A DNA stretch of 63,993 nucleotides, the filler included, from Hausera hauseri (taxonomy: Eukaryota), in assembly GCA_046269625.1 (NCBI GenBank). It is 11 parts of 11 records of this genome, joined end to end, with 100 filler letters (N's around TTAATTAATTAA, not from the genome) between each part and the next. Parts side by side here need not be neighbours in the genome. Positions count along the whole stretch, not along the records: positions 1 to 5,692 come from JBJURY010205745.1; 10 more parts are not named here. One strand, written 5' to 3'. A program made the translations under genes and the position numbers. Positions 1 through 56,888 of the stretch are shown in pieces. The notes beneath the pieces were generated by a model that had not been told where the DNA came from, did no database searches, and saw only the letters and a list, made by a program, of their open reading frames with translations. Positions within the stretch are counted from its first letter, which is position 1. Every line of letters starts with the position of its first letter.

Positions 1-1311
1 TCGTGGCTACTGCTGCGATCTGCGTTTGATTAGTCCATAAAGGTGTTTCATCTATCCGGGTTGCCATTCGTCGGGTATATTTTATCAGCTCGTTAAAATT
101 GCTGGCTGTATGGAATTTAACTCATTCTCTTAAAGGCGGTAAAAATCCAAGTACAAATTGTTTTATGATCATGGCACCAAATGCGTGTCAACTCAAGCCA
201 AAATATCTATTCATTGACGTTTTAAATTTATTAATGTATGCCAATACCTCTTCATTTGGTTTCTGTTTACAGTTTTGGAATTTCAAATATAAGTTTTCTT
301 GTATGTTAACCTGCTGATTTTGTAGAATCCTTTCTCCGTGTTGTGTCCAAGTTTCATCCATTTGTCTAGGTAAGCGAGTTATTTCCATTTTTAGGTCGTT
401 ATTCACATGCACTGGTAGAAGCAACATTATCTTTTCCTCGTCCCATTGCATGGCTGTTGCTAATGAATCGTATTCGTCTAGTCTAGTCATCCTTTCCTCT
501 GTCCTTACTTGTTCGAGTCGTTCATTTAATTGATTTATACCTTGAGCTAGAGTATCTATTTTACTTATAGTGTGATTGCTTTCTACTTATATTTGCTCTT
601 GCTCGCATATTATAATTGCTACTTTATTTTGTATCCAATTAAACTTTTGATTCGCTTGTTTCTCGTTATTATCAATCTCTACTCTATTTCTATGTAGTGC
701 TGCTATATTGTCAATAGTCTGTTGCAGTGAATTATACATTTGTCTGGAATGGGCATTTACATTTTGTACTAGTTGGTCATTTCTGTCTTCCCATTCATTT
801 AAACTTATGTTACTATCGTTCACTATCTGTTCTGTTTGTGTAGTTCTTTCTTCGACTCTATCTAATCCTATGCCATTATTCATAACATTTGTCTCTATTG
901 TGTGACCTCCTCTTTGTTTAGATATATCTTGTATCTCTCCGTCTGATTCTGTCTTATTCTTAGGTCATCTACATTCACTTGATGTACTACTTAACGTGTT
1001 CGAAATTCTAATTCCTGATTAACTATTCTCTGTTCCAATTGTCGTGAATAAGGTGCATTACGAAATTGCCCTCGAGGTGACCTTCGTCGCCGATTAACTC
1101 CTTGTACCCACTGGTATTGTACTGGAGCTGGTGACATTTGCAGTGGATCAATGTCAAGTAATAATTCTGGAGTTGATGTTGTACTTAAAGCGTCTGAACA
1201 GTTAGCAGAACTAATATTTTCCTCGTTTGAATCAACTTTATTAATTGCTGTTAATTGATTTTGTGCCAGTTGTCCTCGGGATAGGGTATTGTACTGATGT
1301 CCCTGCGCCAT
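1..1311 (-). pseudogene. gag: Decayed Ty3/Gypsy-type gag (N-terminal YNTxSR-like motif, coiled coil, capsid-like domain); runs off contig end
   Basis: ORF pieces 991-1311 (MAQGHQYNTLSRG), 587-883 (coiled coil), 188-490 (RLDEYDSLATAMQWDEEK...FQNCKQKPNEEVLAYINKFK), then FVLGFLPPLREEL after a frameshift; capsid Q-x-x-x-E-x-V-x-x-Y pattern; stops and frameshifts between pieces. Confidence 0.7.
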
Positions 1312-1346
1312 TGTTGCTAAAAGAAATTAAATTGCTACCCATTGTA

Positions 1347-1863
1347 TTACATGTATATAGTACAGGTTTCTTCTATGGGTAATTCACACACAATACATTT
1401 CAATAACGTAGAATATTTACGAACACAGTTTTTACAATGAATAATGTGTCCATATGGTAAAGAAATCGTATTTGATTGATTTTTTCTACAGATTAAACCG
1501 GTCCAAATTGTACAGCTAATATCTGTACATCTTTTTTCCACTTCTTTCTCCTTTTTTTAATGTTAGGGTCAGGTGCTAAACTCTCTGATAGTATTCATCA
1601 TCCATCAATTGCATTTGATATATTTTGTTAATCATTGATTGTAATACCTCATATTGGGCCTTTTCATAAAGTTTTATATCAACCATTGTCAGGTATTTGA
1701 AATACACTAGTTCCATTACCCTGGTAAGTAGAAGGTTGTTGTACAATCTGTACCATCCGTAGGCTATTCTAGGAGGTTGTTTCTTAACGGCTGTTAACTG
1801 AATTGTCCATTTAACAAGATGGATCGGAGTCATGCTACTGGCATCTAAGGATCCTACATACAA
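1347..1863 (-). pseudogene. Decayed protein with C-terminal IAP/MDM2-type RING finger
   Basis: 1347-1541 reads LICRKNQSNTISLPYGHIIHCKNC...KCIVCELPIEETCTIYM*; upstream 1576-1863 ORF is probably the same gene, broken by a stop and frameshift. Confidence 0.6.
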
Positions 1864-2009
1864 TATTATTCAATTTATTACTTTATATTGTTATCTAAAA
1901 GAATCATATATATACGCAGACAGACATTTATTTATTTAATTCAAAATGCATGATTTTATAAATTAGCATTCGAATAAATAGAGATGTTCCCATTGTTCAT
2001 TTCTGGTAA

Positions 2010-2660
2010 TTAGAAACGTGTTATTCTTCTTTCTATATGGCTTCTACAGACTGGGCAGTTCACGGTTTGATTTGAGAATTTATCACACGTTTTCAAATGT
2101 TCACATGGTAAAAAATGACTTGTGCTAAATTCACATAGAAAACCACATATTTCAAATCGCGCAAATATAGATAATTAAGAATATTTTGTTCAGGTTGCTC
2201 TGTTTTTCTAAGGAAATAAAATTTAAATTCAGAAGTAATTCGAACGCATTTGGTGACCAATCTGGTTGAGTTTCTTTTCGATATTTTATATATCATAGTA
2301 TATTTTCACGCTTTGTAGGATGTCGGGATATTAATGACATGGCTATTTGGCTGTCTTGATAACTTTCATAAAGATTTCCAACATTGAATTATATTCGGCT
2401 TTGTCTTCTAATACAACTTTTTGGAACTTCATATATTGAATATTCACATTCAGTAGTGTGTAATATTTTCGGACATTGTTGGTCAATCTTTTCTAACAGA
2501 TCCGTCTCAATTAAGCATATGGTACATTTTACACATAGGGCTTCTCCTTTTATTATTAGTATTAATCCTTGCTCTGACAAGTGTTCAATATTTTTATTTC
2601 CTTTGAAAATTAACTTTCTCTTTTGTACAGTATTTAAAATTAAGTATAATTTTTTTCCAC
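2010..2660 (-). pseudogene. IAP-like gene: BIR-like domain, linker, C-terminal RING
   Basis: Manual translation NTVQKRKLIFKGNKNIEHLSEQGLILIIKGEALCVKCTIC...CPKILHTTECEY fits BIR (R..TF..., LA.AG, VxCxxC...H...C); distal LKYVVFYVNLAQVIF/PCEHLKTCDKFSNQTVNCPVCRSHIERRITRF* is an IAP-type RING with a 1-nt frameshift. Confidence 0.6.
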
Positions 2661-3260
2661 TGTATTGTCTTTTGAGTAAACTATCCGTATTGTTATTGTC
2701 GCATCACAATCAGCATCCTTGTCTATATCAGGTTAGTTTAGTAAAGGTATCTGTTAGTAATACGTTGTTGACGTTAATATTTAATAAATAAAAACATGTA
2801 GGATATAATTTTTTATGCATCCTTTTTGGTTGGTCCCTCGTGGACTCATTGAAATTCTCCTTGGCAATAAAGGCATTTTATATGTTCTGTTGTAGTTCGG
2901 AATAATCCCGATATCGCGTATAACCGTGCTAATTCTCCTGGGACGGATGAATTTGGATTAGTTGAAAAGGATATTTTCCTTGTTTGTGCATCTGAATAAT
3001 TCGTTTATTACTTTCAACTTAGTATAATTTATTATTATTTTTTTAATTGATGTTGGCCCTTTTTGTCTATTTCGATAATACAACAAATATCCTATTGTAT
3101 TAGGTTGGGTTAATCCTTGATATTCATATTTTTTGGCGTCCGAATTTTTGTATTTTTGACCGTCAACATTTCAAGCGTAACTAAAATATGTATAGGTGAA
3201 TTCATTTTTAAACATGTCATTATCGTATTATATCAACATGACAACTAAACTAAATTTTAT

Positions 3261-3545
3261 TTACAATCTTTCTATAGTATAATAGTCAAGTCCTTTCTTA
3301 AAGATTCGGTTGATTCCCCGACATAGTGGACATACGGTGGATATTATAAACCACTCTTTTACACAATTCAGACAAAATTCATGACGAAAATTCGTTAATG
3401 TCACAGAGTCAACCGAATAGGAACTCAGACAGATAGCACATGCAGGTCCTATGGGTGCAAAAGTTCCCTGTGGGTTATAGGTGAAATAAATATTCACTAC
3501 TGTGTGGTGACAATGAATTTGAAATCCATAGTTTAGTGCGTACAT
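3261..3545 (-). CDS. Small RING-finger protein (one ligand Cys changed to Phe)
   Basis: CAICLSSYSVDSVTLTNFRHEFCLNCVKEWFIISTVCPLCR. Confidence 0.8.
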   Translation of the reverse strand: MYALNYGFQIHCHHTVVNIYFTYNPQGTFAPIGPACAICLSSYSVDSVTLTNFRHEFCLNCVKEWFIISTVCPLCRGINRIFKKGLDYYTIERL

Positions 3546-3698
3546 TCTGCATATCAGACAGAGAAGACCTTAATGAACGAATGTCAATAATTCATAAGTA
3601 AAACCACTTCATCAATTTTATTAGTAATTAATTCTCATAATAGTTTAAATTTACAGTTTAGCAATCATATATGGCCGGGAATTTCTCCACTCGTCGGG

Positions 3699-4088
3699 TC
3701 AATTATCTTCATCTTCATGAATTATGAGGCTTATTGACGCTCGTCCATCAATGTTCATATATATTATTAATCCTCCCAAAGAGTAGAAGTCTGCATATTC
3801 ATAACAGGAAGGGCATAATGGATATGCCTTTAGATGTTCAGTTATACAGGTCGGATAGAAGGCGTGTTGACAAGAAAGTACTGCTAGTGTATCAGCCACT
3901 AAATTAAGGTATATTGAACAAAATGCACATGTCCGTCTGCAACATTGACAAGTGGTCTACTCAGCTAATCAGGTATATATACAAATCCGACAATACTGAT
4001 GATCGCAAGGTAACACAGTCTTTTCCAATGTCAAATCTTCCAAGCAAATTGGGCAGGTTTCTACAAAATAACAACATTCAGTTTCCAT
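3699..4088 (-). pseudogene. Tandem double-RING protein with two in-frame stops
   Basis: From ATG 4088: METECCYFVETCPICLEDLTLEKTVLPCDHQYCRICIYT*LAE*TTCQCCRRTCAFCSIYLNLVADTLAVLSCQHAFYPTCITEHLKAYPLCPSC; one frame through to stop at 3699. Confidence 0.8.
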
Positions 4089-4136
4089 ATTAATGCATTA
4101 AATTTCTATTATTTATTAAATATCACACGCTATTAC

Positions 4137-4310
4137 TCATAGTTCATTTAGTTTGTACAACAATACATTTAGTTCTTCGATATCTGGAGGGGTTAATGCA
4201 CAGATTGGATATAATAGCTGATAACTTTCATCCAATGTAGCGATGTCCAATTCAATAGTTTCTTCACAGCAACTGCATTTAAATTGATGATCCTCCTCTC
4301 CTAGCTCCAT
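4137..4310 (-). CDS. Small putative zinc-ribbon ORF
   Basis: MELGEEDHQFKCSCCEETIELDIATLDESYQLLYPICALTPPDIEELNVLLYKLNEL; CxxC plus degenerate xPxC; same strand as the RING cassette. Confidence 0.35.
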   Translation of the reverse strand: MELGEEDHQFKCSCCEETIELDIATLDESYQLLYPICALTPPDIEELNVLLYKLNEL

Positions 4311-4470
4311 GATGAATTTTCACAGAATGCAAGAATTTTGTTCCCCTATTGTGGTGATTAAATATTTTCGACATATAACGCAAGCTGAAAATCAGTATTA
4401 TCTGACATATTTATATACAATCCGTCATCCAATTTAAGTGTCTTTAATTTCATTATTTCTTAATTTTAAT

Positions 4471-4533
4471 AAATATCTACTATCTTTTCAACTTAAATAT
4501 CTATCATCCTTTCGACTTAAATATCTATTATCT
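4471..4533. repeat. Short imperfect 24-bp tandem repeat (about 2.5 copies)
   Basis: AAATATCTACTATCTTTTCAACTT / AAATATCTATCATCCTTTCGACTT / AAATATCTATTATC. Confidence 0.7.
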
Positions 4534-4778
4534 ATCATCTTTTGGACTTCCTCTAATTCACGTCACACTTAGTTTCTTCCTCTTAATACCAAAAGTTTTA
4601 TCTTATAAATTCTAGTCAGTGGAAAATTATTCGTTTTAAACACTTGATAATAGCACATTAACAACATAATGCATTCTTGACACCGTCTAATTGGTCATTT
4701 TCTCCTTTCCATAACTTCATGCAAATGCGGCTGATTCTCAGATTATATATCAACAAAACGGTGCAGGTATATATTTAA

Positions 4779-5129
4779 TCAGTTATAATACATTCGTGGT
4801 AATTCAATGAGTCTTCCATTTACACCTAATATCAAGATTCTGTTAGATCCTTCTTCTTCACCGGGAAGTACCACGATGGTAGCACCCCAACACTGATAAC
4901 CCGTCGTTTTCCGGCGGCAAGATGGGCAAGTTTTGTTCCTACGCAGCCAATTATCCGCACATTGAATACACATAATATGTGTGCAGCGAAATAGAGCATA
5001 TTTCATACCCAAATGATTATAGCAAATTTTACATCTAGTACCTATAAGAATATAAATTACGGATTTGTCATTATCATTATATGCATCCTTAAAGATTATC
5101 GTGAAGAAATTCTTCCTTACCCGGGGCAC
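4779..5129 (-). CDS. C3HC4 RING-finger protein (intact motif; start codon uncertain)
   Basis: CKICYNHLGMKYALFRCTHIMCIQCADNWLRRNKTCPSCR. Confidence 0.85.
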   Translation of the reverse strand: MPRVRKNFFTIIFKDAYNDNDKSVIYILIGTRCKICYNHLGMKYALFRCTHIMCIQCADNWLRRNKTCPSCRRKTTGYQCWGATIVVLPGEEEGSNRILILGVNGRLIELPRMYYN

Positions 5130-5792
5130 CAGTTTTTATGTTAGGCTACAGTGTATGGAGGATTTTTAGAGATTTTATTCCTAATTTCGACATAACCAAC
5201 ATAAAAACGGAAATACGTATGAAGGGTGATGAATGTTCAATGGTGGTTTGACAACTACGTTGTCTGCAACTGTCATTTGTAAATTTCACCTGGGTAAGTT
5301 GTAAAATGGAATAGATTATTAAAATTGATTTCACCTATTAGTGGATCTGTTTTATCTATATTGGATTTCAAATTCAAATCTTTTATACTATATTGTTATT
5401 TATTCCAAGATATTTAAGTATAAGGTTGCCATTTTTATAGCTTTGTGGGGCCTTAATCAATAATCATGATTTTAATATTAAAGGTATATTAAGAATATCT
5501 TAACTGGTATATTAGGAATATCTTATCGTATCTACCTAAATAATGTAACAAAAAAATAAAGGTATCTGATTTCGCATTGATATTTTGTGTCAAGTATGGA
5601 ATTATTAGTCTTATTAATTTGAACTGTTGTAACAGGTTTTTGCTAAATTGTATTGGCTAAAATTTAGTATACAGATGAGCCGTGATTCACTTNNNNNNNN
5701 NNNNNNNNNNNNNNNNNNNNNNNNNNNNNNNNNNNNTTAATTAATTAANNNNNNNNNNNNNNNNNNNNNNNNNNNNNNNNNNNNNNNNNNNN

Positions 5793-6645
5793 GGTATTTG
5801 GTCGCGAGACTTAGTTAAACAATTGATTTTGGCTAGACCTGAAAATTTTGAAGGAACGTTACGATTAGCTCAAGATTTAGAAATGGCGCTAGATAGATAC
5901 ACCAGACAACGATAGAAATGACAGGAATAATGATCGAAATGACCGGAATGACAGAAACCGCAATGGTAATCGTGGAAGAGACGACAGACGATTTTCGGGT
6001 AACAGAAATTATTGGAATAGGAATAATAATCGCGGTTACAGAAATGGCAGAGGTAGTAATTATACTAATTCGAACAGGTCAGACTCTAATTCGGATAGGA
6101 ATAGAGAAAATTATAAAGGCTCAAACTACTCGAATCAAAACGGCGATAACCGAAATAACGATAATAGACGAACTGCCGACAATGTGCAAAGTTTGTCAAA
6201 TCAGTATAGTAAGGATATAAATAGATTGAAGTCGCCAGTGAACGAAGACGGTCGACAGAGAGTCGGCAGAAATGGGAATTTGGTTTGTTGTACTTGTGGC
6301 AAAGAAGGACACATCTCAAGGTCATGTCCAAATCCGAGTAGCGTTTCATTTACCGAACGAAATAAGACTAGTATGATTAGAACTAATGAGAACTTAGAAG
6401 CAAAGTATGGCGTTCGTGGAGATACAAACACTATTATCGATATACAGGATTTGAGAAAATTTTTGGATGTTCAGCCAGATACTACGAACTTACAAATTTT
6501 GATGGCCAGAAGAGAATGCGGAGATGAGCTAAGATTACTGGAAGTATATCACTGCTTAGTAGAACCAGAAACTGAATACGAACACGTGATAGAACCCAAA
6601 CGTAGTGAAATGACACGAAAAAAATTGTGTTCCAACAAGCAATAA
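5793..6645 (+). pseudogene. gag: Retrotransposon gag C-terminus: capsid end, R/N-rich tract, CCHC zinc knuckle
   Basis: IWSRDLVKQLILARPENFEGTLRLAQDLE, frameshift near 5910, RNDRNNDRND... tract, then CCTCGKEGHISRSC (CX2CX4HX4C). Confidence 0.8.
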
Positions 6646-9194
6646 ACCATCCGATAAACCAGACTCATCGACGGCAGTCGACTTGGACGCAGAGACTGAG
6701 TTTACAGCTAAAAAAGTAGATAGGTTTACTGAAGATGATGTAGCAGAAAAAGAATTTATGGAACCGTTAATACTTAAAATTTCGAAAAATAGAGGCCGTA
6801 GCCCTTCTCTAAAAACGAAATGAAGAAGTCGTTCACGCTCCAAAATAACTAGAGAGAAAATTAAAAAAACAGAAAACCCGAATGTCGTTGTAGGAGGCAA
6901 CACGGACCATAGTTTGAATGTGCCGGAGGTTGGTTTATTCACACCTGTCGGAGCAGCGGAGTCTATAGAGTCGATTAATGAAATTAACGAGATTTGCCCA
7001 ATTCCCATTAGTGAGGAAGATACAACGAGTACCGACGATTTTGATGCAAAGAAATGGAAAGTCCGACATTTATGGAAAAATGCCAATGAATTGAGGAAAA
7101 TGAGAAATAAAGGATATGGTCAGAAATATTACAGGGTGTCCTAGAAAAGCTTAAACAATTTAGCGAACAAGTAGACATATCCGGAAAAGAGCAACAGTTC
7201 GCTGAAAGGTTATATAGAAGTTTGAAACTGCGTAGCGAAAGGAAGTCTATAGAAGCAATCGACTTAGAACAACCCGAAGAGGTATCAGCCAAAACGTTGT
7301 CAAAATGGAAGCAGGAATTGGAATTGTGGATTAAAAATGGGTTTGAATTTTCGGAAGGATAGAGTAAAAATGAAGAGAGTGTCGATGTAAAAATTACTAA
7401 GGCTCAAACGCTATTATCGATTTTGGAAGAAAACCCAAAATTGAAGAGAGTAGTCCGTAATTTAGAACGTATGATGGACGAAATTCGGTATGCAATAATT
7501 AAACGACTTAAGGGAAAACCGGTTAACCACCGCAGTAACATCGACTTAGAAATATTGGGTATAGACCTAGTAAATATTCCTCCCTTAATGGAGATGATTA
7601 AACTTACGTTCGCCGTATCTAGACGATATACGAATTTAGAAAGTCGTATTAAAATAGAAAATGAAATACGAGCACAAATTTTAAGTTTGAGAAATCGAAT
7701 TATGTTCCCAAACAACGAGGATACTCGATATACAATAAAGGCTTGTATCGTAGAATTGGACGAGTATAGGGACGAGTTTAGTTATATCGGTCGAGTTATG
7801 AATTTCCTAAAAAAACAGACGATGAGTTAGAAGATGCATATAGGATGCTAGATAAAGCCATAATGGCGAAACAAGTAATCGCAAATCAATTGTCGGAATG
7901 GTCCTAGTTAGTAACGCGACTAACCAAATCGGTAGAAGATCGTAAAACAAAATTTCCGCAAAGCGAGCCAACGGCGAAGAAGCAACTAGAGGAAAGTGCA
8001 CACGATTTAGCCACGATGCGAATAGAAATAGACATCCGTATTCAATTTGAAGCGCTACGACGACTAAAATTTATGGGAAAGGAACGAGACGCATCGAATA
8101 TGGAGGAAATCTACAAATTGATCGAAGAGACGAATTTTACAGAGAAACGGAATATGATTTGCGATGTAAATTCAAAGCTAAGGATTGCCCGGTTAGAAGG
8201 GATTCTATATTTAACCGGGAAACCAATCGACGAAATTTCTGTACCAGACATTGAAATCTTGGACATTTGTCCAGAATATCAAGATACGTTAACGGACGAA
8301 ATAAGATTCTTACACAAACCTCAAGAATGGATGGCCGGATCAGACCAGAATTTCCATACCAAGTTGATAGAAATCGGAAACGATCCACATTTTAGCTTTC
8401 AAGAACGCAAGTTTGTAAAGAAATTGTCGGATGCAATGGACTATGATTCAAAGGTTATAAATGAGCTGTATGAGTTAGCCTATTTATTAGTGGAAATGGC
8501 AGAAATCAGCGATGAGCAGATGAGGCAATTGATGCCAAAGATACAAAAATTAGAAAAAACATGTATCAAAACAAAACAAAGAGCGACAAGGTTAGAGAAA
8601 ATAACAAAAGAGCTTGAAGTCTATCAAAACAAATATGCTTTTACCGAATTATAGATTAAGAATAAACAAGCATTTGTACAAAGATGGCAAAAAGATGTAA
8701 TCATCGAACTAACGGATTATCACCAAAAGCTACTCATCGACTCTAACGAATTCGGTGAATTACTAAAAATGATCCAATATGCCTGTGGAAATGGAGTAGG
8801 TTTTTGGACTACGCAGATGAAAGAAATACAACCTAGGTTAAAAGAAATTCGGGAAAATGTGCAAAGAACAAGTGTAGCCTTAGTAGGCGCTGAACTCCCA
8901 GATGTCAGTAATGAGCCAGAATGGGATGCATACTTATACGCAATGCTGACCGAAAAGCCCATGACTCCAGTACAATGGAATGAGATAGACACGTGCCCGC
9001 AGAACAGAAGATTTGATGTAAAAATGCTACTGGATTCAGCGCTGACTGAAAAAGATTTGATTGAATTAATTAAAGTAAATATTACTGAAAATAAATTAAG
9101 ACAACTTATTCCAACTTTAACTAAATTGTCCAGTGAGAACACGATTTATAGCACGGTGCCGAAACTTTTGATAAGAAATTTGCTAAAATTTTAA
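6640..9194 (+). pseudogene. Chain of co-oriented helical/charged hypothetical ORFs (6914-7144, 7423-7830, 8016-8654, 8769-9194), probably one or a few broken long ORFs
   Basis: Purine-rich coding-like + strand; frames resume across isolated stops; no protease, RT or integrase motifs recognised. Confidence 0.5.
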
Positions 9195-9214
9195 GGAATA
9201 AACCTGAGGTAGCG

Positions 9215-9784
9215 ATGAGAGTGATGGTATCATCCGAGTGGATGGACGAAAAAGAATGTGAGTTAACTACATATTCTTATGTAAGGGACGTGCGAGAATG
9301 GTTATTAAATAATGGTGGAACAAATGAGTTAAACTACAGATTTTACTTTATAGATAAAATACTCGACGACCTAAAACAACTAATAGATGTCGGGATTATT
9401 CCCAACAAAACAAACCAAATAGTAGCAATAATAGCTAACGATCAGACAAAAGAAGAAGCCACACGTAAGGCTAAAGTGAAACAATGGATAGGACAAATTA
9501 TGGGAGTTTGCGACGCTGAACTGTATTTTGAGTATTTACAAACGGACGAGAATAAGGAACAATACGACATAAATTTAGTACCACTAAGTGTAACAACCAC
9601 TAAGGGTCCAAGACCGAAACGCCCAGTAGGCAGGCCTAGAAAAGCGCGAGAAGAACTGGATTACAGTGGAGAGTTAATTAGAGAATTAAGACAGATGTCG
9701 ATTCCAACTCTTAGCACAGATAATGAGGAATTAAGGAAGTTAATAAAAAATTTAATACGAATTGTAAATTATTCCAGTCTTTGA
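9215..9784 (+). CDS. Ubiquitin-like domain protein with AT-hook
   Basis: N-terminus MRVMVSS...YVRDVREWL...YRFYFIDKILDDLKQLIDVGI fits the Ubl pattern (TVxDLK...RLxFxGKxLxD...LxDYGI); RPVGRPRK AT-hook. Confidence 0.65.
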   Translation: MRVMVSSEWMDEKECELTTYSYVRDVREWLLNNGGTNELNYRFYFIDKILDDLKQLIDVGIIPNKTNQIVAIIANDQTKEEATRKAKVKQWIGQIMGVCDAELYFEYLQTDENKEQYDINLVPLSVTTTKGPRPKRPVGRPRKAREELDYSGELIRELRQMSIPTLSTDNEELRKLIKNLIRIVNYSSL

Positions 9785-9793
9785 GGTGATGTA

Positions 9794-10458
9794 TTGGATG
9801 ATAAGGAGAAGATAATATTTGATGCAGCTAAGATGATGCTGAGTTCGCGTTTTAAACTATCAAAAAGTAACTTAACCGATAAATCGGTAATCGATAAGAT
9901 TATGGTAGAAAACATCAACGAGGGGTTGAGAAAAGTGTTATTATATTTACCTATCAAAATAAATCCTAATGGAGAGAACGAAATTAATAGGGCTATAAGC
10001 TTAGCACGGAAAGCAGCAAGAAGAATGCATTGCGAAGTAAATTGGGCAAGACTCTTTGATAAGGAACAGGACAAACGAAACAACAATAAACTTGACGATA
10101 TGTTACGTAACCTGACAACGTCGGACGTCGGAGGTCGGAAGAATGAATCAAATTGGATAATTAGCTTGCTCACCTTGATGATGCTAATAAAGCATATAGG
10201 CGCTGTAACCGTCTATGATTGCGAGAAGTTTAAATTAGGACAGAGATATTCCTTAATGGATCTGGAAGTATGCGAGGATGCCAAAACGCGCAAACTGGAA
10301 GCAAGAGAGAAAAGTTACTTCCTGTATCTACAACAAGAATTGGTATCCTTAGATCGAATGGAGTGCATGCTGAAACCATTGCGTAAAATTTTTCACTGTG
10401 GACTAGTACACGGACACTCCTCCATAATCAAGACAACTACTCCACTAATTCCGATAAA
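9794..10458 (+). CDS. env: Chuvirus-like (Jingchuvirales-type) envelope glycoprotein, N-terminal part, truncated by contig end
   Basis: Hydrophobic signal WIISLLTLMMLIKHIGA followed by VYDC...YSLMDLEVC...LYLQ...C...IFHCGLVHGHSSII, matching the YDC...SLxDxxxC...C...CGxHxHxS pattern of chuviral G proteins. Confidence 0.7.
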
Positions 10459-12779: not shown

Positions 12780-12990
12780 TATTACCCATATTACTTGTAT
12801 TTTACACACAGAGACAAAAACACACATGCACACACGACATATTTTACCTACACATTTCCTATGTTCTGCATTTTACCCACACAGACAAACACACGTACAC
12901 ACGCGCGACTTATTTTAGCTATGCATTTCCCAGTTACTCCCAATTTACATGCACACACACAGGCAGACCAACACACACAGATACACACAC
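12780..12990. repeat. AC-rich low-complexity tandem repeats abutting the broken end of pPolB
   Basis: Repeated ATTTTAC(A/C)CACAC(A)GACAAA..CACAC units and (CA)n tracts. Confidence 0.65.
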
Positions 12991-15336
12991 GACATAAATG
13001 TCCTCAGTATGGATCTGATAGATGAAACTATCAGTATCCATATACATCAGCTGTATGGACTTGAATGTTGGGACCATGATGTCAAAGTGGAATTTGTACA
13101 TCAAGGTCTTTGACAGGTCCAGTATTGCCATACCCACATATATGGGCTTGTTGAACTCAAGCGATGTTTTCAGCATATTGATGCTGACCAAGTTCTCAGC
13201 ATATATGGTGCTGCTGTGGAAGTTGGGCTTGGCAATGAGCTTCTTTGCCGGCTTCCACTCAGAGACCAGTTCGATGTTGATTCTGTTGCGGATATTCTCC
13301 ATGGTCTTGCCAAAATCGTTCTTGGCATTTATCTGCAGCTTCGTATTGAGATCTATGTAGGGCTGCAGCCACAGGGAATTAGTAATGCGGAGTCCATGTC
13401 TAACAGCTTTCAGGAGATTTATATAATGGAATACATACTTCTCCCTTCTATCCAGATGGCAAAGCAGCTTTCTATGCTTTCCATGGGACGGAGGCTTGCT
13501 CTCAGGGAGGAAAGGCAGCTGTTGATGCCTTGTGCGGATAGAAGCCGGATATTCCATATCCACCTCCAGTGTGTATCCCGTATCTCTAGTGGGGTCCAGG
13601 TCCAATATAGGGATGTTTTCAGGATTCTCGACCCATTTGAAATTATCATATGGCAATGGGGCGCTCATTGCCCATCCATACAAGTTGTTGACATCCAGGT
13701 ATGATATATATGAAGATACCTTTGCTGAATTGTATTCAGCCACATACTTGTTGTTGGCCTCGCTATCCCGGTAAATTGTCTGGTATATTCCGCCTCTAAT
13801 GCCTCTCTCAATTATAAGGATCATGTCGTAATTCTTAATGATCTGCAGTCTAATACCAGTATAGCGCAGCATCGCTGCCCAACTCATTCCTGGAGTTGTA
13901 AAGAAATGAGCCGGATCCAAAGCATGGCTCTTCATTGTAACATCCCTGAAACTCCCAAAGACGTCTATCAGCGGCAGCACATCGGTTTGGAGATGTATGT
14001 CATTATATTCCCCTATTGTCCTGCATTGGAATGCCTGCCAGACTTTCTGGGCATGCTGGTAGTCCTTATTACTATTATCACAGTCCGACAGCTGGCTATA
14101 AAAGCCCTCTTTGTCCAGCAATCAGGTATCATCCAGTGTTTTTCATGAGGTTGTTTAGTCATAAGGAAACACGGCTTTCCATTTAACCAGGTCAAAGTTT
14201 GTGGGAAAGAATTGCTTCGTCTCCTTGTGTTCTTCTGAAGGGAGGTTCTTCACTAAACTATCCAGTAAAGGCGACATGAAACGAAGGCTGTCTATGAAGC
14301 AAAGTCGGATTTTACCATTATGCTTAGTGAAAGTGATATATTTCTCCTCACTGTTCGAGATTACATATATTACCACCAATGTTGTCTAATTCTCGGACTA
14401 TGAAATGCAAATCATGGCCGTTATGATTACGGAACACTATAGGTACATATGTGCATGTTTTGCAACGTAGATTGCAGTTGTTACGTGCTCCCCACGATAT
14501 ACATCTGTAAAATGGTAGTGATCCTTGGCTTTCCAATTTTCCTTGGTGAAAGACTTGTCACACAAATAACATGCTGTTGTCTTGCGCCATTCTTCTTCTT
14601 GTTCCCATGACACGCTCATATTATTCTTATGGTGTTGAAAATGTTTTCAAGCCTATGAGCCATGTCTTCAAGTCGTTTTATGAAATGTGCTGCTGCGCCT
14701 GGACCCCTGAATAGAAATATTTTACTGTCTAATCCTTTGGCATACATGGAATACGATGAGTGTTCCTGATATTGATATGCCATTGTGCTGCTATGTTGAG
14801 GACTAGGAGTGCAGTTGTGAATTGGTCGGCGAATAGCTTCAAAGTCGCAATAAATAACTATTGGGACCTTGATCTTCTTCTCGAACTCCTTGAATTCAAT
14901 ATAGTCCTCCTTGGGAAATTCTGGCCTTACACAGTAATTGTTATTGCAGTACATTTTGTGCTCTGCAAGCTTGTCCACTGCTGCATCACCACTGAAATGG
15001 GAAAATCATTGTTTACATATTTCTATTTGTCCATGATGATTCGTAATTTGGGATCTGACTAGACTCTCACAATTCTTGATCCAAACGTAATGATTCTTTT
15101 CTCCATCGTCTAGTAAGAGCAGATCCCTATGATCTTCCAATTTAGTATCATGTATCTGCAAGGGATACAATATATCTTCCTCATCCAATCCAAAGATGTT
15201 GATGGATATATTGTTGATTCTGCTGAACTTCTTAATTTCATCTATGGATGGAAGGAATATGATACATTGGAAGTCATAGTTGTGCTTCAGATCATTATAT
15301 AGCCAAACTCGATCTGCTGCATGTTTTTGATCCGGT
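12990..15336 (-). mobile_element. pPolB: Polinton/Maverick protein-primed DNA polymerase B pseudogene
   Basis: HYVWIKN, VIYCDFEA (ExoI), CYLC...DHYHFT (endonuclease VII-like insert), FIDSLRF, YLDVNNLYGWAMS (motif A), YMDTDS (motif C); several frameshifts. Confidence 0.92.
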
Positions 15337-15436
15337 NNNNNNNNNNNNNNNNNNNNNNNNNNNNNNNNNNNNNNNNNNNNTTAATTAATTAANNNNNNNN
15401 NNNNNNNNNNNNNNNNNNNNNNNNNNNNNNNNNNNN

Positions 15437-28806: not shown

Positions 28807-31800
28807 TTAGCCACGTGTGAATTTCTGTCCCAGGATTTCAGGTAGGATGCAATGTGTAAAATACTGCTTAACTTTGGGAACTTCTGTTTCCCAGAGCTGA
28901 TCATCTGGCAGAATTCTTTCCACATAAATATCATTTTCACTCCATACTACAAAATCACAATATTGCACATCCACAATGTGAATCTGAGCCTGGACCTGAT
29001 AGTAATAAGGATGGTTTCTATCCAGTTGTACAGAATCTCCATCCTTAACGAGACAAAAGCCAGGCTGTCCGGCACACATCTTCAGACTGACTTCATGCTG
29101 TTTGCTCTGTGGACACTGAAAGATAAGACAATGAAAGACATGGATAATAAATAGCCTCCAAAAGATTGGATTTTTACGTTATATTTTTTTAAAGATTTTG
29201 TTTCCCTCATTTCACTATTCAACAATAAAACTAGAAAGTGATAGTTTGTTTATGTCTCTGTCAAACAGGTGTGTTCTACAGGTAAGTGTGCTTTCATCTT
29301 AAATATGTTTTAACCCTCTGGAGTCCAGAGTGAAATTGGACGTTTTTATAATATTTTTGCTTTTACCTTTATATTTCACTTTAAAATTTGTTTTTCCTGC
29401 CATGTTTGGTGTCTTTTTGTTCAGTACAACCTCCTATGTGTGAATTTGAAGATTTTTTTTAAATTGTGACCTGCTTTATCAACACAGCAAACTTTAAATG
29501 ATACAAAAAACACACAAAAATGCAAAATCCGAGTGAAAAATTTATAGTTTTTTTTACTGTGAAAACCACAAAAATTTATAACGAACCGTTTTTACAACAC
29601 AGAATGCAAATATGAACAGTAAACTTCATAAAAATATATTCAAATTGAACAAAAATCAAAACTATGTACACTATTTACATTAAAATGAAGCCTATTTTTT
29701 AGGCGTTTTTTAGGCACAACAATGAAGTGTCAGAATAAATCAGTTGTGCCACTCTTCAAAGCAGTTTCTGTCCAGAACAACACAGAAGGGCACATCACAG
29801 GCCTTGCACTTCCATGGTGTGTCTCTTCTCTTATTGTCCACCTGGTGACAGCGCCTACATTTCAGCCTCCCTTTTGTGGCTTTTTCGCCAGCACCAGTGG
29901 TTTTGCAGATGGGCACAGGAACATGCTCCATTTTCCTTTTCAGGGGGACACCTGTCTTGTCCACATCACAAAGTCCACACAACAGGTCCACCATGAAGTC
30001 TTTGTGAGTCAGGGGCTGCTCCTTCTTTGCCTTGCAGAGCTCCTTGTGCAGAATGTATGCATTTGTTGAAGAAATATCTAAAAAATGCACCAACATTGTC
30101 TTGTACATACGAGCTGTTTTTCTGTGGGTGGAGTAGTACTGAATCAGCTGGTCAGACAGGTGAACTCCACCCATGTGTTTGTTGTAGGGCATGACTGGTG
30201 TGGGGCAGGGCACATTTTTAGAGGTCCACTGACCATCTTGGTCCTTCACCTTTCTCCTCACTGTCTCACCTGAAAAGGCAGGATGGATGGTGGAGCACAC
30301 AGATACCTCCCGTGTGTCCTTCCACTTCACAAACAGGACCGGTTCCTCCCTGATCCATCTTATGGACCCTCTTTCACTTTTTTTAGTGAAGCCATTTCTT
30401 CTCCCTCTAGGGCAGCCTTTTCTGTTCTCCCTGTAGGTCCCACACGCTCCAAACTTCTTTACGGACAGGTCCGTAAACAACTGGGGGCTGGTGTAGAAAT
30501 TGTCCATGTAAAGATGGTATCCAGTCCCAAGGCAGGCTGGCTCGAGCAGGTCCAGGACAACTTTATGGGAGAATCCATGTTCAGACTGAGCATAATTCTT
30601 CCCAGTGTAAATGCCAAACCTGATTGTGTAGCCACTGCAGGATTCTGCAAACACAAAAATTTTTATCCCCCATTTTGTTGGCTTGTCCTTCATGTATTGT
30701 GTCATTCCTGTCTTTGCTCTGGTTGCCACCATTCGTTCATCCACTGCCAGCTCTCTCCTTGGATGGTAAAATGCCAGGCAGGCACTGAGAATGTCATCAT
30801 ACAGAGGACGGATTCTAAAAAGCTTGACATGGCCTGGGGTTCCTTTTTTTTATAATTTTCAATGTCCTGCTCAGGATCACTCAGGTGAATGTTCCAAAAG
30901 ATGGATCGGAATCTGTCACGTGTCAATACTTTGGTTGGGGTAGGGACAGACAAAACATGGTTCTGTTTCCAGTAATCTTGGATACTTGGGAGAGACACCA
31001 ATGACATGTAAATTAGAAGGCCAAAAAATTATACAAATCTTCAGTTTCTATGTCAGTCCATTTATATTTTTTTCCAGATCTCTTATTTTTTGCTGCATTT
31101 TTATTTGTGTTATTGCAGATGGTTTTCACAGTGTCAGTGGCAAAAAATAAAAAAAAGCTCTTTAGGAGTATGAGTAGACAGAGTGTCAAAATGGACTCCT
31201 GGTGTTCTTCGTGGCACGAATCTGCTTACCTCTGGGGCAGCATCAACATCCACCTCTGTCTTCCAGGGCTCAGAGCTGATGCCTGGCTCTGTTGATCCAG
31301 GGGATCTGGACCTGGTGCACGCACCGCGATGTGACGCGCCACCCCGCCCCACCCTCTGTGCGGACCTCCGAGGAGCGCTTGACGCGCTCGCTGGACCCGC
31401 AGCTCCTGCTCAGCTCACTAAGGGACTCCAGAGGGTTAAAAGGGGATGGAAAGAAGACCCTAAAAGACTTTAGATCTTGTAAAAGATCTTATCTTTCATA
31501 CTGTTACTCAAAGTCTGCAGTGCAGTGTTCAAAACCTCTTGATAAATCATTTTTACCTTGATTTCACACACCCCGGCTCCATGACAGTCACATGAAACAA
31601 CTCCATCTGGTGAGGCTCCCATGTAAGGCCACCTTGAGTTTAACCACAGCCCACTGTCCATGCAGGAAAACCCCTCATGGTCCACACGCTGGAGCTGCTC
31701 ATACTGTTTTCGGGCTGTTGCTTCAAATTTACAGTCATATCTGGAATAAGAATAAACTGTATTTAAAACTTGAATTTAATTTATTTCTGGTGCATAACAT

Positions 31801-35886: not shown

Positions 35887-36611
35887 CACGGAACCGCTAG
35901 GAGCTTCGCTTAAAAACCCAGCATTTCTCAAATTTAAACAATAGGTATATTTTGTGAGTTTACATACTGTCAGAAAATGTAAACATTAAAAAGTAGCTCG
36001 AATTTTAAAATACTTTCGAACTGAAAATCTGGTCCTCCTTGTTAGCGCCACCAAACTTCATTTAGAAATGTGCGGGTTTGAGTTTCTTTTGATGTCCTTA
36101 ATGCGCGCGAACATGGAGAAATCAAAGAGAGGGACTTTTGTGAAACATCGACTTTTCTTCGTTAATTCTGCATATTTTTTATGTATCAATGTGCACCCAT
36201 CTCTCCACAAATACAAAAACAAAACAAACAGTAAACAGGCAATTCAAAGAGAGTAATCATAAATTGTTCTTATTCAAAAGTAGGTTAAGTTTAGTTTATT
36301 TGCACAGCATACATGCTTTTTCAGCAAAAATATAATTGTTCTACATTCTATTGAAATGCCATTAATGATGCACATTTTATTTGTATAATGATTAGAAGTA
36401 ATTTAGTCTTGATTAATAAAAAATAGTAGCAACAATATTATAAAAACTTTGCAAAGCTGTTTATGTTATTAATTACAAACTTAAATAGATNNNNNNNNNN
36501 NNNNNNNNNNNNNNNNNNNNNNNNNNNNNNNNNNTTAATTAATTAANNNNNNNNNNNNNNNNNNNNNNNNNNNNNNNNNNNNNNNNNNNNATAGTTAAGA
36601 TCTGGGCCAAT

Positions 36612-37272
36612 ATTGCACTCACTCGAGGTCTGCTAGCCGATGGTCGAGTAAGGGTTTTCGGACATGCTCTTCCATCTGGTGGTGCTGGATTTCGTGTGCA
36701 GTGTTGTAGCAACACTATATTAGACACTAAATTAAGATTTAAGATAGGGTACTGTTGTTTCGTCAGTACCCTTTCTGAAACACTAAAAGAATACAATAAG
36801 AATACTACACTCACGCGAGGTCTGCTAGCCGATGGTCGAGTAAGGGTTTTCGGACATGCTCTTCCATCTGGTGGTGCTGGATTTCGCGTGCAGTGTAGTA
36901 GAAACATTATATCACTAATTGAAGTAATATCTAAGATAGGGTACTGTTGTTTCGTCAGTACCCTTTCTGAAACATTTCAAAAAAGACGAATAGAGGCTTT
37001 CGGAGTAAGTCTTAAGATAAACACAAAGATAAATTTTTTTGTTAAGGTAGGCCACAAAACAATTTGCACTAAAATCTCGACCCTTGAGCCACTTGTCCTG
37101 GTTATACGCCCTAATTATGCTAGTTACCTTGACCAGGACACTTGGCTCTCGTATATAGGAATAACTAGGACCTTGACTAATACTGCACTCACGCGAAATC
37201 TGCGAGACGATGGTCGAGTAAGGGTTTTCGGACCTGCTCTTTCATTTGGTGATGCTGGATTTCGCGTGCAGT
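36612..37272 (+). repeat. Three copies of a ~95-nt hairpin-forming unit (36612-36704, 36803-36900, 37182-37272) and two copies of a 27-nt hairpin (36746-36772, 36938-36964)
   Basis: Core GATGGTCGAGTAAGGGTTTTCGGAC identical in all three; small hairpin AGGGTACTG/CAGTACCCT; period 192 bp. Confidence 0.9.
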
Positions 37273-39863
37273 GGCTCCGAAAGCCTGTAGCTGCCTTTCA
37301 ATCTATTAGTTGCCACATAGGAAACTGTAGGTACACATTTGATTCGGCAGAATGCATATATTCTCTACTTAGGAAATATGTACATAAAGAAAAATTAATC
37401 AATATAAGATCCCTTATCTTGACTCTGTACGCTCAGTATCTGCGCACCAAATTCAGGCCCGTTAAAGTCACCAGATGTGTCTCTTCTGTGTCCGGTGGAG
37501 GCTACTTTCCTGAACTACCACTACCATACTCCTGGTCACACTATCACCCTCTTCCTGCACTCCAAAGACCTATTGTTCTTCAACCTCCACTTCAACCCCA
37601 ACATACCAACCGCAGATATGGGCCAAAACCAATCAGGAAACTACCTAAATTCACCCAAACACCCAAGCCACGTATGATAAGCACGGCAACACAAACTGAT
37701 ACCCCAAACATTGAGAATGTTACGAACAAGGCTACACCAAAAAATGCAAATAAAAATCAAAATGAAAATAAACAACTTCTCTCAGCCCTTGACTGGATTT
37801 CTGATCTGTTGGGTTTCCTTAACAATAGCATGTGCTCTTGGATATCCTTTCCATTTACTAAACTTAAAGAGTCACAAAAGGCATCCCTTAGAAACAATGT
37901 AATCAAAATAAGATCTAAACTTCGGATAAACAGTGAGTTGAGACTATTCAAAATAGGAGTAATAAACAATAAATACATCCTGGTTAAATATATAGAAACA
38001 ATAGCCCTCGCCTTGGATTACGTTCCCTTGACTGACTTGACCACCTTTACTTCTAACTTCTCCGCTAATCCTTCGCTCACCACTATCAGCACATTCATCA
38101 CTGAATGTGTTAAACCTTACAAAACATATTATGAATCTAATAAACCTCAAACAAACCCGATCCCGCCTGTCCAAGACACAGATAGCAAGAATTACATCAT
38201 AGATGAAGATCAGGAAGATTTCATGTATGATAAACATGTTTCTCTCCCACCAGCTGCATCGATCCTCCTAGCAGATCTAGAACGATTACTTATGAAAAAA
38301 CCTACTCACTACGTTAACATAGATAGGAGTAAACTATCCCCGGCCCTCATGAATAAACTCTCTTCTCGGATTTTTGCAATAAAAGGTAAGATTCCGACCT
38401 TTTGTCAGGACACCCCCAAACTTAACTTCAGCTTTGAAACGGAACTTCAAATCTTCAACCTTCTAAAATCAGTACAGCAACTCGTAGTAGAACGCATCCC
38501 TGAACCGTTTAATAAGCTTTGGGAATCCCTGAAAATAAAATCACCGCATTCGCAAGTATCGAAACCAAAAAAAGAACAACCCAAACTAGACACTGTCAAT
38601 ATCCACCCCAACAATGAGCCTAAAATAAAGGAAACTCAACCCAATAATGTGCGTAAAATAAAAGAAGCTCGACCAATCAAGGCAGCTCAAAGTGACTCTA
38701 GAACCCTCTTCACCTGGCCTCTCGAGAACGCCCTAGTAAATTCTGACACTAGATTACACCAATATGTCCCTTCAGTTCGAGCCCTCCGATACTTCTTTAA
38801 GAAGGGATCTAGTGCCATGGTCAATACCTCTATAACAATAAAGGGCAACAGCCTTAGAAACCAAGCAATTAAATTTGCCAACGACTTTATAAATAGGTAT
38901 AAGGAAACTACAAACTCCTATACCTCTGCATCCTTCAAATCCAAAAATCAAATCCTCTCCTTTCTCACACTCCTATCCAACGCAACAACATCAAACCCAC
39001 TAAAGTCACTTGATATCTTATTAGACAGGGTCAAAATACCCAAAACCAACACCTATAGAAACAGCCTAAATCCGACCAACCCATCCTCCGAAAAATCGCA
39101 ACCAAGTAAAGCAGCCTTACCCCAACTAAATCCTACTCCAATTGAGAACAAGACTGCACCTACGCCACAGCAGATACCTATACCGATCACCACACCTAAC
39201 TCGCGCTTTACTTGGCCACCGGATAATGCACTCGTCTCAACCCACTGTGCACTCTCTACTTATATACACACTGCTAAAGCCCTTCGACACTTCTTCAGCA
39301 AGGGCAATAGCACCTACGTAAATAAACCGGTATACTTTAAAAATAACAGGCTGAAGCTGAGGGCTTCTGACTTTCTGAATAGGCTCTTAGGGAAGTATAA
39401 CAGTGCCACAGATAAGTACAAAATCATCTATTTTTCAGATAGTAGGAGCGTCCTCAACTTCCTAAAATTACTTTCTGATGCAACCGCATCGTCCGAAGCA
39501 TCTCTGCCTGAACTTCTGAAGTCCTTCAAAGTTAAAAAATTTCCCGATAATGCTTCAAACAACTTTCTACGTTCTAAACCTAATAAAGAAGGCCTTCAGG
39601 TCGGCGCTCAAGCCATACGACCTATACCCAACCTAAAATCAAAACTTACAAAACATGACCTTACATACATAGATAAAATTACGGTAACCACACCTAAAGT
39701 AAAAAGCCACAAAATAGAATTTAATTTTGCAACAATTAATGCCCCACCCAGGACACTGGTCTCATATATTTCTAAGGTAGACAACCCTGTCACCACTTAT
39801 TCGAAACCGATAAATAGGATATACGACAGTAGAGATGATGACATCCTGACCATCTCGTCCTAA
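36696..39863 (+). CDS. 1055-codon open frame, A/C-rich, probable N-terminal region of a non-LTR retrotransposon ORF; true start unknown
   Basis: Long stop-free frame with an internal duplicated ~95-aa domain; continues in frame into Ulp1 remnants. Confidence 0.65.
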   Translation: MQCCSNTILDTKLRFKIGYCCFVSTLSETLKEYNKNTTLTRGLLADGRVRVFGHALPSGGAGFRVQCSRNIISLIEVISKIGYCCFVSTLSETFQKRRIEAFGVSLKINTKINFFVKVGHKTICTKISTLEPLVLVIRPNYASYLDQDTWLSYIGITRTLTNTALTRNLRDDGRVRVFGPALSFGDAGFRVQWLRKPVAAFQSISCHIGNCRYTFDSAECIYSLLRKYVHKEKLINIRSLILTLYAQYLRTKFRPVKVTRCVSSVSGGGYFPELPLPYSWSHYHPLPALQRPIVLQPPLQPQHTNRRYGPKPIRKLPKFTQTPKPRMISTATQTDTPNIENVTNKATPKNANKNQNENKQLLSALDWISDLLGFLNNSMCSWISFPFTKLKESQKASLRNNVIKIRSKLRINSELRLFKIGVINNKYILVKYIETIALALDYVPLTDLTTFTSNFSANPSLTTISTFITECVKPYKTYYESNKPQTNPIPPVQDTDSKNYIIDEDQEDFMYDKHVSLPPAASILLADLERLLMKKPTHYVNIDRSKLSPALMNKLSSRIFAIKGKIPTFCQDTPKLNFSFETELQIFNLLKSVQQLVVERIPEPFNKLWESLKIKSPHSQVSKPKKEQPKLDTVNIHPNNEPKIKETQPNNVRKIKEARPIKAAQSDSRTLFTWPLENALVNSDTRLHQYVPSVRALRYFFKKGSSAMVNTSITIKGNSLRNQAIKFANDFINRYKETTNSYTSASFKSKNQILSFLTLLSNATTSNPLKSLDILLDRVKIPKTNTYRNSLNPTNPSSEKSQPSKAALPQLNPTPIENKTAPTPQQIPIPITTPNSRFTWPPDNALVSTHCALSTYIHTAKALRHFFSKGNSTYVNKPVYFKNNRLKLRASDFLNRLLGKYNSATDKYKIIYFSDSRSVLNFLKLLSDATASSEASLPELLKSFKVKKFPDNASNNFLRSKPNKEGLQVGAQAIRPIPNLKSKLTKHDLTYIDKITVTTPKVKSHKIEFNFATINAPPRTLVSYISKVDNPVTTYSKPINRIYDSRDDDILTISS

Positions 39864-44700: not shown

Positions 44701-45395
44701 CCAGAGACTGCTTCAGATGTGCAGGTGTCGGTATGAATGATCGCCCCGACAAATATATTATGTCACTCGACTTCGTTACAATAAAGCCGAGAGTAATATA
44801 ATTTGTATAATTATAGTTTGTATAATTCGCCATCCACTATCCTTTTCCGTGTAGTTGGCGATTTTCTCCTCGAGCTTTTTGCCTACGTCGGCAATAAAAT
44901 AGTTGGAATACGGTTCGGCTCGATGTGACAGGTACCACTGTTTCCTGTCACCTTCAACGTTTTCAAATTCTGCAAGAGCATAATGTTGCACTTTGCTGTG
45001 GTATTGTTGGAATTTGGCCACCTCTATTTCCAACCGGTTACGCACATAAGCGGGTACATCCTTCAATTGCGTTGTTGCTGTTGTTTTCGCCGTCATGTCC
45101 ACCTTCATGTCCACGTACGATCTGTTCAGGTCGTACTTGATTGTAATGTTGGGAATATTGGCCTCCTGTTCTTCTTGTTGATGCTGTTTCTGCTGCTTCT
45201 GCTGCTGGGTACTGTTTCGTCAAGACTTGTTGAAGCCTGGCGTTTTCTACTGGTTGTTGTTGTTGACATGATGCTGTTGTCCCTATTTGTTTCTTCGACC
45301 GCTTAAACTGGTTTAAGTGGTCCTTGTGAGTGTTGTAAAATTGTTTATAGTTGATTTCATCAACTATAGAACAACAACCGGGACAAACATAGGTT
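41790..45395 (-). mobile_element. pPolB: Second Polinton/Maverick pPolB pseudogene, nearly full length
   Basis: VVNIKN...CFLYSILA, HYVAV, VYADIEA, DHDHFTGRFLGAACNSCNL, FLDSLQFL, YLKLDVYLLADVF, YIDINNLYGWAL, KLKNNSVYGK, SGDTDS, LSCNDDKR; many frameshifts. Confidence 0.93.
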
Positions 45396-49751: not shown

Positions 49752-49824
49752 ACCATCCATGTGCTGATTCTCGCATATCATCAATCATCATGACCGGCCG
49801 ATCTCCGAATAAATCAGCGTGTCC
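49752..49824 (-). mobile_element. IS end (IS5-family-like) inserted at CTAG inside the TPR gene
   Basis: 49753-49824 is the exact reverse complement of 59878-59949; terminus GGACACGCTGATTTATTC; flanked by CTAG. Confidence 0.7.
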
Positions 49825-51291: not shown

Positions 51292-51424
51292 GCCCACCGC
51301 TCCGCCCCCGGTAAAACGCACACGGCCGCCCCAGGCGTTTTTCAAGCTGCCGGCGCTGCCACTTCGCGCCAAAGAATGGGATGAGGCCAAAACCACCCGC
51401 CTTTACCACTTCGCGGCCTGGCCG

Positions 51425-51957: not shown

Positions 51958-52015
51958 TTGAAGCCTCCAGTAATTCCGTTACAAGCAACACCCCGAAATC
52001 CCCACGTCATTCCCA

Positions 52016-52293: not shown

Positions 52294-52331
52294 TAATGCC
52301 CATCCTGTCCAAATCAGGCATATCGCTGCCT

Positions 52332-56884: not shown

Positions 56885-56888
56885 GCAT

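What the first reader, a model, noticed from the sequence alone, without database searches (positions are those of the whole stretch)
2010..2660. Hidden BIR + RING (IAP-like) gene missed by the ORF track
Seen: joining frames gives a BIR-like N-terminus (RKLIFKG...HLSEQG...VKCTIC...HTTECEY), a linker, and an IAP-type RING ending CPVCRSHIERRITRF*. Known: BIR plus C-terminal RING defines inhibitor-of-apoptosis proteins. Inference: element-encoded apoptosis suppression that keeps host cells, possibly stem or germline cells, alive during mobilisation.
Basis: partly seen in the sequence, partly recalled or inferred. Interest (0 to 1): 0.7.

Follow-up and report, generated by a model that had tools for sequence, protein, structure and literature searches.

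The report
Broken IAP gene on a retroelement
This is a decayed copy of a cell-death-inhibitor-type (IAP) gene that sits among several ubiquitin-ligase genes just upstream of the coat-protein gene of what looks like a many-copy jumping element in an animal genome, much like the cargo already known from the Burro element of flatworms.

Summary
The IAP-like gene is real but longer and more broken than reported. It aligns at 42% identity over 394 residues to an intact 403-aa relative, but has about six frameshifts, two internal stops and a RING lacking three of eight zinc ligands, so this copy is a pseudogene. It lies among five more RING domains, directly 5' of a decayed gag-like gene. Related contigs pile up over it at roughly 40-100 times, and over gag at over 1,000 times, the depth of the copy itself. 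Best reading: accessory IAP/E3-ligase cargo of a Ty3/gypsy-like retroelement, as in planarian Burro1. LTRs and pol lie outside the contig, the host is unknown, and the first BIR lacks the groove residues that bind caspases. A role through ubiquitin signalling is therefore likelier than direct caspase blocking; the stem-cell or germline claim is untested.

The parts
2010..3156 (-). Decayed intronless IAP-type gene (N-terminal extension, BIR1, BIR2-like, linker, RING); breaks near 2990, 2848, 2733, 2645, 2200, 2109 (frameshifts) and 2389, 2293 (stops)
   Evidence: 167 of 394 aligned residues identical to intact P0005, 116 of 249 to P0006
2780..2985 (-).
   Evidence: Pfam BIR 24.3 bits over cut-off 22.9, E 4.5e-5 with X at the break; 55 of 56 PDB matches are IAPs; groove positions
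2440..2625 (-).
   Evidence: Pfam BIR E 0.014, below cut-off; same spacing in all 4 database relatives; same region of P0005 finds BIR clusters at 0.88-0.90 in the ESM Atlas
2010..2150 (-). IAP-type C3HC4 RING, frameshifted near 2109, three of eight zinc ligands replaced in this copy
   Evidence: zf-C3HC4_3 E 1.1e-5, 25.6 bits, cut-off 27; alignment to P0005 and P0006
4779..5276 (-). RING gene A (stops in its 5' third)
   Evidence: zf-C3HC4_3 E 8.9e-9, zf-RING_2 E 1.6e-8, both over cut-off
4137..4410 (-). Decayed cysteine-rich ORF B, family unclear
   Evidence: sequence; only DUF7560 E 0.006
3699..4088 (-). Decayed double-RING gene C
   Evidence: RING stretches at residues 136-173 and 178-226 of the X read-through P0004; zf-C3HC4_2 E 5e-5
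3261..3600 (-). RING gene D
   Evidence: zf-RING_2 E 5.7e-8, over cut-off
1576..1869 (-). ORF E, 97 codons, no family; may be the 5' part of the RING F gene
   Evidence: no Pfam match at E<=1; other contigs skip 66-72 nt between it and RING F (table 5)
1347..1556 (-). RING F, IAP-type RING ending about 35 nt before the gag start
   Evidence: zf-C3HC4_3 E 2.2e-8, over cut-off; 40% to the RING of P0006
1..1326 (-). Decayed gag-like gene (basic N-terminus, coiled coil, capsid-like part), cut off by the contig end
   Evidence: Retrotrans_gag E 0.0025 and PNMA E 0.039, both below cut-off; highest depth of related contigs

Best explanation
The region is the 5' accessory part of a many-copy Ty3/gypsy-like retroelement in an AT-rich, repeat-rich animal genome. 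Intact family members carry a captured, intronless IAP (BIR-BIR-like-RING, about 400 aa) among further RING genes upstream of gag. Most likely mechanism: the IAP is made from its own short transcript; the BIRs act as protein-binding adaptors and the RING recruits a ubiquitin-loaded E2, so that it ubiquitinates host death or immune signalling proteins and keeps cells with an active element alive. Shown: domain content, gene order, decay of this copy, existence of an intact relative, repetitiveness. Inferred: element class, separate transcription, ligase activity, targets and the survival effect. This particular copy is dead.
For: Domain calls (10, 18, 19, 42, 55); intact relative with the same layout, BIR 27 bits and RING 52 bits, both over cut-off; full-length ESM look-alikes are BIR+RING clusters at 0.92; 5,702 contigs of run X1 lie on the 5.7-kb contig, mostly 80-95% alike; diverged contigs bridge RING F and the gag start (records 1 and 2, 53 and 61 differences) and others cross 1510-1583 and 1897-1949; at 4 of 8 IAP breaks and 2 of 4 gag stops checked, other contigs are listed as differing, so the damage is at least partly private to this copy (the tables were cut, so the rest is unknown); AATAAA follows 4 of 6 upstream genes within 80 nt, background 0.19, P 0.015; precedent of Burro1 (passages of PMC13465017, section 7 of PMC6431247).
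Against: The gag call is weak (below Pfam cut-off; no PDB match; no protein relatives; fold failed). No LTR, primer site, RT or integrase is on the contig (one search found one PBS-like string, inside gag). No single contig was listed that joins the IAP to gag, and depth over the IAP is more than ten times lower than over gag, so many family members lack it or have diverged. BIR1 lacks the IBM groove residues, which argues against the direct caspase route reported for Burro1. The surroundings of the intact relatives could not be fetched.
Confidence: 0.62

Rival explanations
1. It is simply a Burro-family element of a planarian, and the gene is a relative of Burro1's IAP region; the biology is then already published.
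For: BIR+RING cargo on a gypsy-like element is the Burro1 hallmark (PMC13465017 passages); Burro-like elements can have upstream accessory ORFs and decayed copies exist (PMC6431247 section 7); contig GC 33% fits AT-rich planarian genomes (PMC11410931 passage); a separate contig of this window has a Burro-like Gag-to-Env layout.
Against: PMC6431247 describes the BIR among the domains of the giant ORF1 polyprotein, whereas here it is a stand-alone gene before gag; a RING array is not mentioned there; the second contig shares no DNA with contig 1 and the window mixes bacterial and animal contigs. No Burro sequence was available to compare.
Confidence: 0.25
2. The carrier is a gag-bearing element of another class, without LTRs (for example the giant retrovirus-like elements with transposase ends noted elsewhere in this scan, or a DIRS-like element).
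Against: The contig ends inside gag, so missing LTR and integrase say nothing; no sequence look-alike of P0002, P0003 or P0005 was found among earlier findings.
Confidence: 0.15
3. The IAP/RING array comes from an endogenous DNA virus or Polinton-like element and only neighbours the gag element.
For: Compact intronless RING and IAP genes are virus-like; IAPs occur in adintoviruses (PMC8502044 passage) and in nimavirus-like shrimp repeats (PMC3124438 passages); depth differs more than tenfold between IAP and gag.
Against: RING F ends about 35 nt before gag with no terminal repeat between, and diverged copies bridge that junction; no DNA-virus core gene on the contig; no relative among viral contigs.
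Confidence: 0.12
4. Intact copies block caspases directly.
For: [quoted passage not shown]
Against: At positions equivalent to XIAP BIR3 310, 319 and 323 both this copy and P0005 lack the type II residues and have Leu at 323 as type I BIRs do (PMC6360406 passages); BIR2 is shortened.
Confidence: 0.2

Closest known systems
Burro1 (GYPSM1) giant gypsy-like retroelement of planarians and its IAP region (Lee, Poulet, Allikka Parambil, van Wolfswinkel, Dev Cell 2026, not held; seen only as cited in PMC13465017; Arkhipova and Yushenova review PMC6431247, section 7 read)
   Same: BIR and RING cargo on a many-copy gag-bearing element; AT-rich animal context; decayed copies with stops and frameshifts.
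   Different: Here a stand-alone two-BIR+RING gene lies upstream of gag among five more RINGs; in the review the BIR is listed among domains of the ORF1 polyprotein. Env, pol, LTR and host could not be tested; sequence relationship unknown.
Cellular and baculoviral-type BIR-BIR-RING IAPs (DIAP1, cIAP1/2, XIAP, NAIP)
   Same: BIR with the C-x2-C-x16-H-x6-C spacing in the intact relative, C-terminal C3HC4 RING; these are the PDB matches.
   Different: Very diverged; BIR1 lacks the IBM groove residues, BIR2 has C-x2-C-x18-H-x3-C; intronless; only 3 relatives at E<=0.001 among 1.84 billion representatives.
IAP cargo of adintoviruses/Polintons and nimavirus-like shrimp repeats (PMC8502044, PMC3124438; passages)
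   Same: IAP genes amplified as passengers of mobile or viral elements in animal genomes.
   Different: Those carriers are DNA elements; here the neighbour is a gag-like gene.

Membership tests
IAP (BIR-containing) family | At least one BIR domain | tested here: met
   BIR1 over the Pfam cut-off in the window read with X (24.3 bits) and in P0005 (27 bits)
IAP (BIR-containing) family | C-terminal C3HC4 RING | tested here: met
   52 and 50.6 bits in P0005 and P0006; in this copy 25.6 bits, under cut-off, three ligands replaced
IAP (BIR-containing) family | Second repeat is a canonical BIR | tested here: inconclusive
   E 0.014 below cut-off, none alone, no match from this part in the family profile against PDB; ESM neighbours are BIR clusters at 0.88-0.90; conserved but non-standard ligand spacing
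Functional IAP gene | Open reading frame in this copy | tested here: not met
   about 6 frameshifts and 2 internal stops
Caspase-binding (type II BIR) IAPs | IBM groove residues W310, E/D314, E/Q319, W323 (PMC6360406) | tested here: not met
   310, 319 and 323 differ in both P0001 and P0005; 314 is acidic only in P0001 (positions counted from the zinc His, one register shift possible at the break in P0001)
IAP (BIR-containing) family | Anti-apoptotic or E3 activity | not testable with these tools
   no assay; no RNA run listed
Ty3/gypsy LTR retrotransposons | Capsid-type gag | tested here: inconclusive
   Retrotrans_gag E 0.0025-0.0085, under cut-off
Ty3/gypsy LTR retrotransposons | Dispersed many-copy family | tested here: met
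   5,702 related contigs in run X1, mostly under 95% alike; summed depth is not a true copy number
Ty3/gypsy LTR retrotransposons | LTRs, primer site, PR-RT-RH-IN order | not testable with these tools
   contig ends inside gag; no genome held; no loci found
Burro elements | BIR and RING cargo | tested here: met
Burro elements | Giant Gag-Env-Pol ORF1, planarian host, homology to Burro1 | not testable with these tools
   no Burro sequence available; host coded

The most novel reading that the evidence does not exclude
A retroelement lineage independent of Burro has assembled a virus-like array of ubiquitin ligases (six RING domains in 4 kb, one on a two-BIR IAP without a caspase groove) upstream of gag, and uses it to rewire host death or innate-immune signalling rather than to block caspases. 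IAP capture by gag-bearing retroelements would then be a repeated strategy in animals, not a planarian oddity.
Probability: 0.35. Interest if true: 0.65.

Novelty: new variant of a known kind. Interest (0 to 1): 0.42.

Why it matters
Retroelements rarely carry host-manipulating genes, and the one tested case of an IAP (Burro1) is described as planarian-specific and as helping host stem cells. A second layout, with a separate IAP and a set of RING ligases ahead of gag, would allow a test of whether this is convergent and whether it serves the element or the host. The value is limited because this copy is dead, the contig stops inside gag and the host is unknown.

Tried and rejected
Single-sequence AlphaFold of P0005 (mean pLDDT 30.5) and of the gag part (39.9) failed, so no fold search was run. 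Word-based homologue searches found nothing for BIR1 among longer proteins or for gag, and only P0005 and P0006 for the BIR region. No related loci in viral contigs or JGI metagenomes. No RNA holder listed; this says nothing on expression. Run X2 holds only 0.06 of the words and was not used for any claim on habitat. The three stops at 2730-2704 in the single-frame read-through P0002 are not real in-frame stops: two compensating frameshifts put that stretch in another frame. The depth peak at 4941-5320 was considered as an LTR and rejected as unproven: it covers RING gene A. A link between contig 1 and the Burro-like contig 2 was looked for and not found. PMC5408684 (rotifer LTR elements with extra ORFs) had no whole-word hit for RING, BIR or apoptosis. 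Literature searches for an IAP upstream of gag outside Burro listed no such paper; the library lacks most subscription papers and Repbase, and the supplements of PMC6431247 could not be read, so this is weak evidence of novelty.

Full report
Setting. The window is a string of 11 unrelated contigs separated by N spacers; the finding lies on the first, 1-5692, 33% G+C. No genome is held for it. All genes discussed are on the minus strand.

Observation. The quoted motifs are present in frames 2703-2389 and 2174-2010. Taken alone, 2389-2703 has no BIR match in Pfam at E<=1 or in PDB at E<=10; the RING piece matches zf-C3HC4_3 at E 1.1e-5, slightly under the cut-off. Read with X at one frameshift, 3004-2731 passes the Pfam BIR cut-off (24.3 bits against 22.9), and 55 of its 56 PDB matches at E<=10 are IAPs (NAIP, cIAP1/2, ML-IAP, XIAP, DIAP1).

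Relatives. A phmmer search of 1.84 billion representatives with the middle of the gene returned 3 proteins: P0005 (403 aa, E 6e-38), P0006 (252 aa, E 1e-36) and P0007 (201 aa, E 3e-4); P0008 is a near copy of P0005. P0005 is an open BIR, BIR-like, RING protein (BIR 27 bits, RING 52 bits), and its nearest ESM clusters are BIR+RING families at 0.92. A frameshift-aware alignment places the window gene at 3156-2010, with 167 of 394 residues identical to P0005, about six frameshifts (near 2990, 2848, 2733, 2645, 2200, 2109) and two internal stops (2389, 2293). Three of the eight zinc ligands of the RING are replaced. The best tblastn score of P0005 on 100 shuffled contigs was 24.6 bits, against 151 on the real one. 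The gene is real and this copy is a pseudogene.

The two BIRs. BIR1 has the standard spacing in P0005 (16 residues between the second Cys and the His, six to the last Cys). Counting from the zinc His, both P0005 and the window copy lack the Trp at 310, the Glu/Gln at 319 and the Trp at 323 of type II BIRs, and have Leu at 323. PMC6360406 (passages) names these as groove residues and Leu at that place as a type I feature; type I BIRs bind adaptors such as TRAF2 and TAB1, not caspases. The best single-domain PDB matches are BIR1 domains of cIAP2 and cIAP1 by their length and entry (the domain numbering of those entries rests on PMC6360406 for 3M0A and on recall for the rest). The second repeat has C-x2-C-x18-H-x3-C in the window and in all 4 relatives. 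The same region of P0005 finds BIR clusters at 0.88-0.90 (a lead only), but the family profile matched PDB BIRs only through BIR1 in the four alignments shown. I read it as a diverged BIR; this is not proven, and both folds failed.

Surroundings. From 5' to 3': RING gene A (5276-4779), a decayed cysteine-rich ORF (4410-4137), a double-RING gene (4088-3699), RING gene D (3600-3261), the IAP, an ORF of no known family (1869-1576), an IAP-type RING (1556-1347) and, about 35 nt later, a broken gag-like gene running off the contig. That is six RING domains in 4 kb. The gag call rests on Retrotrans_gag E 0.0025 and PNMA E 0.039, both under cut-off; PDB and homologue searches added nothing. AATAAA follows 4 of 6 upstream genes within 80 nt (background 0.19, P 0.015), a modest hint of separate transcripts. 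No primer site or LTR was found.

Repeat family. Two public runs hold the stretch. In X1, which may be the source sample, 5,702 contigs lie on it at 80% identity or more: 252 at 99+, 712 at 95-99, 2,093 at 90-95, 2,645 under 90. Against a baseline of 6.8 from three pieces with no differences, summed depth is about 1,230-1,390 times over gag, 600 over RING F, 43-101 over the IAP and 13-24 over 3231-4370; the tool warns that this is no copy number, so only the order of magnitude counts. Diverged contigs bridge RING F and the gag start (1201-1484 with 53 differences, 1272-1563 with 61), and others cross 1510-1583 and 1897-1949, but no listed contig joins IAP and gag (only 16 of more than 6,000 pieces were shown). 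At 4 of 8 IAP breaks and 2 of 4 gag stops other contigs are listed as differing, for example 35 contigs (depth 365 of 385) at the stop at 2389-2391; the tables were cut, so the other breaks are undecided. The lesions are thus at least partly private to this insertion.

How it most likely works. Shown: domains, order, decay, an intact relative, repetitiveness. Inferred (0.62): the region is the 5' accessory part of a Ty3/gypsy-like element; in intact copies the IAP is an E3 ligase whose BIRs bring in host signalling proteins and whose RING ubiquitinates them, lowering death or immune signalling in cells where the element is active; the other RING genes would add targets. Direct caspase blocking is less likely (0.2) because the groove is missing.

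Comparison with what is known. Burro elements carry BIR and other apoptosis and ubiquitin domains, and a Dugesia element has an upstream accessory ORF (PMC6431247, section 7 read). Burro1's RING+BIR region is reported to protect stem cells from caspase-mediated apoptosis and is called planarian-specific (PMC13465017, passages; the primary paper is not held). IAPs also ride on adintoviruses (PMC8502044, one passage) and nimavirus-like shrimp repeats (PMC3124438, passages), and retroposed IAPs are common in bivalves (PMC8917759, passages). PMC8532177 and PMC11410931 were seen as passages. Eight searches listed no paper on a stand-alone IAP within a RING array upstream of gag; the library is incomplete, and supplements of PMC6431247 that could show Burro gene maps were not readable.

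Verdict. Observation partly confirmed and extended; interpretation partly supported. It works like the Burro1 cargo in kind, it is an IAP-family pseudogene by test, and membership of Burro or even of LTR elements is not established. New variant of a known kind; interest 0.42.

Noticed in passing
window 5793-10458, + strand (separate contig): Broken long frame with capsid end, Asn/Arg-rich linker, CCHC knuckle (E 5e-4), about 1,000 helical residues and a Monjiviricetes-type fusion glycoprotein match at its 3' end (E 5e-5, under cut-off). This is the Gag-to-Env layout described for Burro in PMC6431247. No DNA similarity to contig 1.
   Followed up: partly
window 1576-1869, - strand: Open frame of 97 codons with no Pfam match between the IAP and RING F; other copies are 66-72 nt shorter at its junction with RING F.
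   Followed up: partly
window 12934-15380 and 42098-45219, - strand: Two decayed protein-primed DNA polymerase B-like (Polinton-type) genes on separate contigs, judged by eye; the first had no Pfam match.
   Followed up: no
window 36543-39863, + strand: Open frame of about 1,090 codons with 64-residue N-terminal repeats and no Pfam match.
   Followed up: no
window 49752-59949: Bacterial contig with a 141-bp tandem repeat protein (9.6 copies) and a 75-bp inverted repeat at its two ends.
   Followed up: no
window 29740-30849, - strand: piggyBac-like transposase frame, judged by eye.
   Followed up: no
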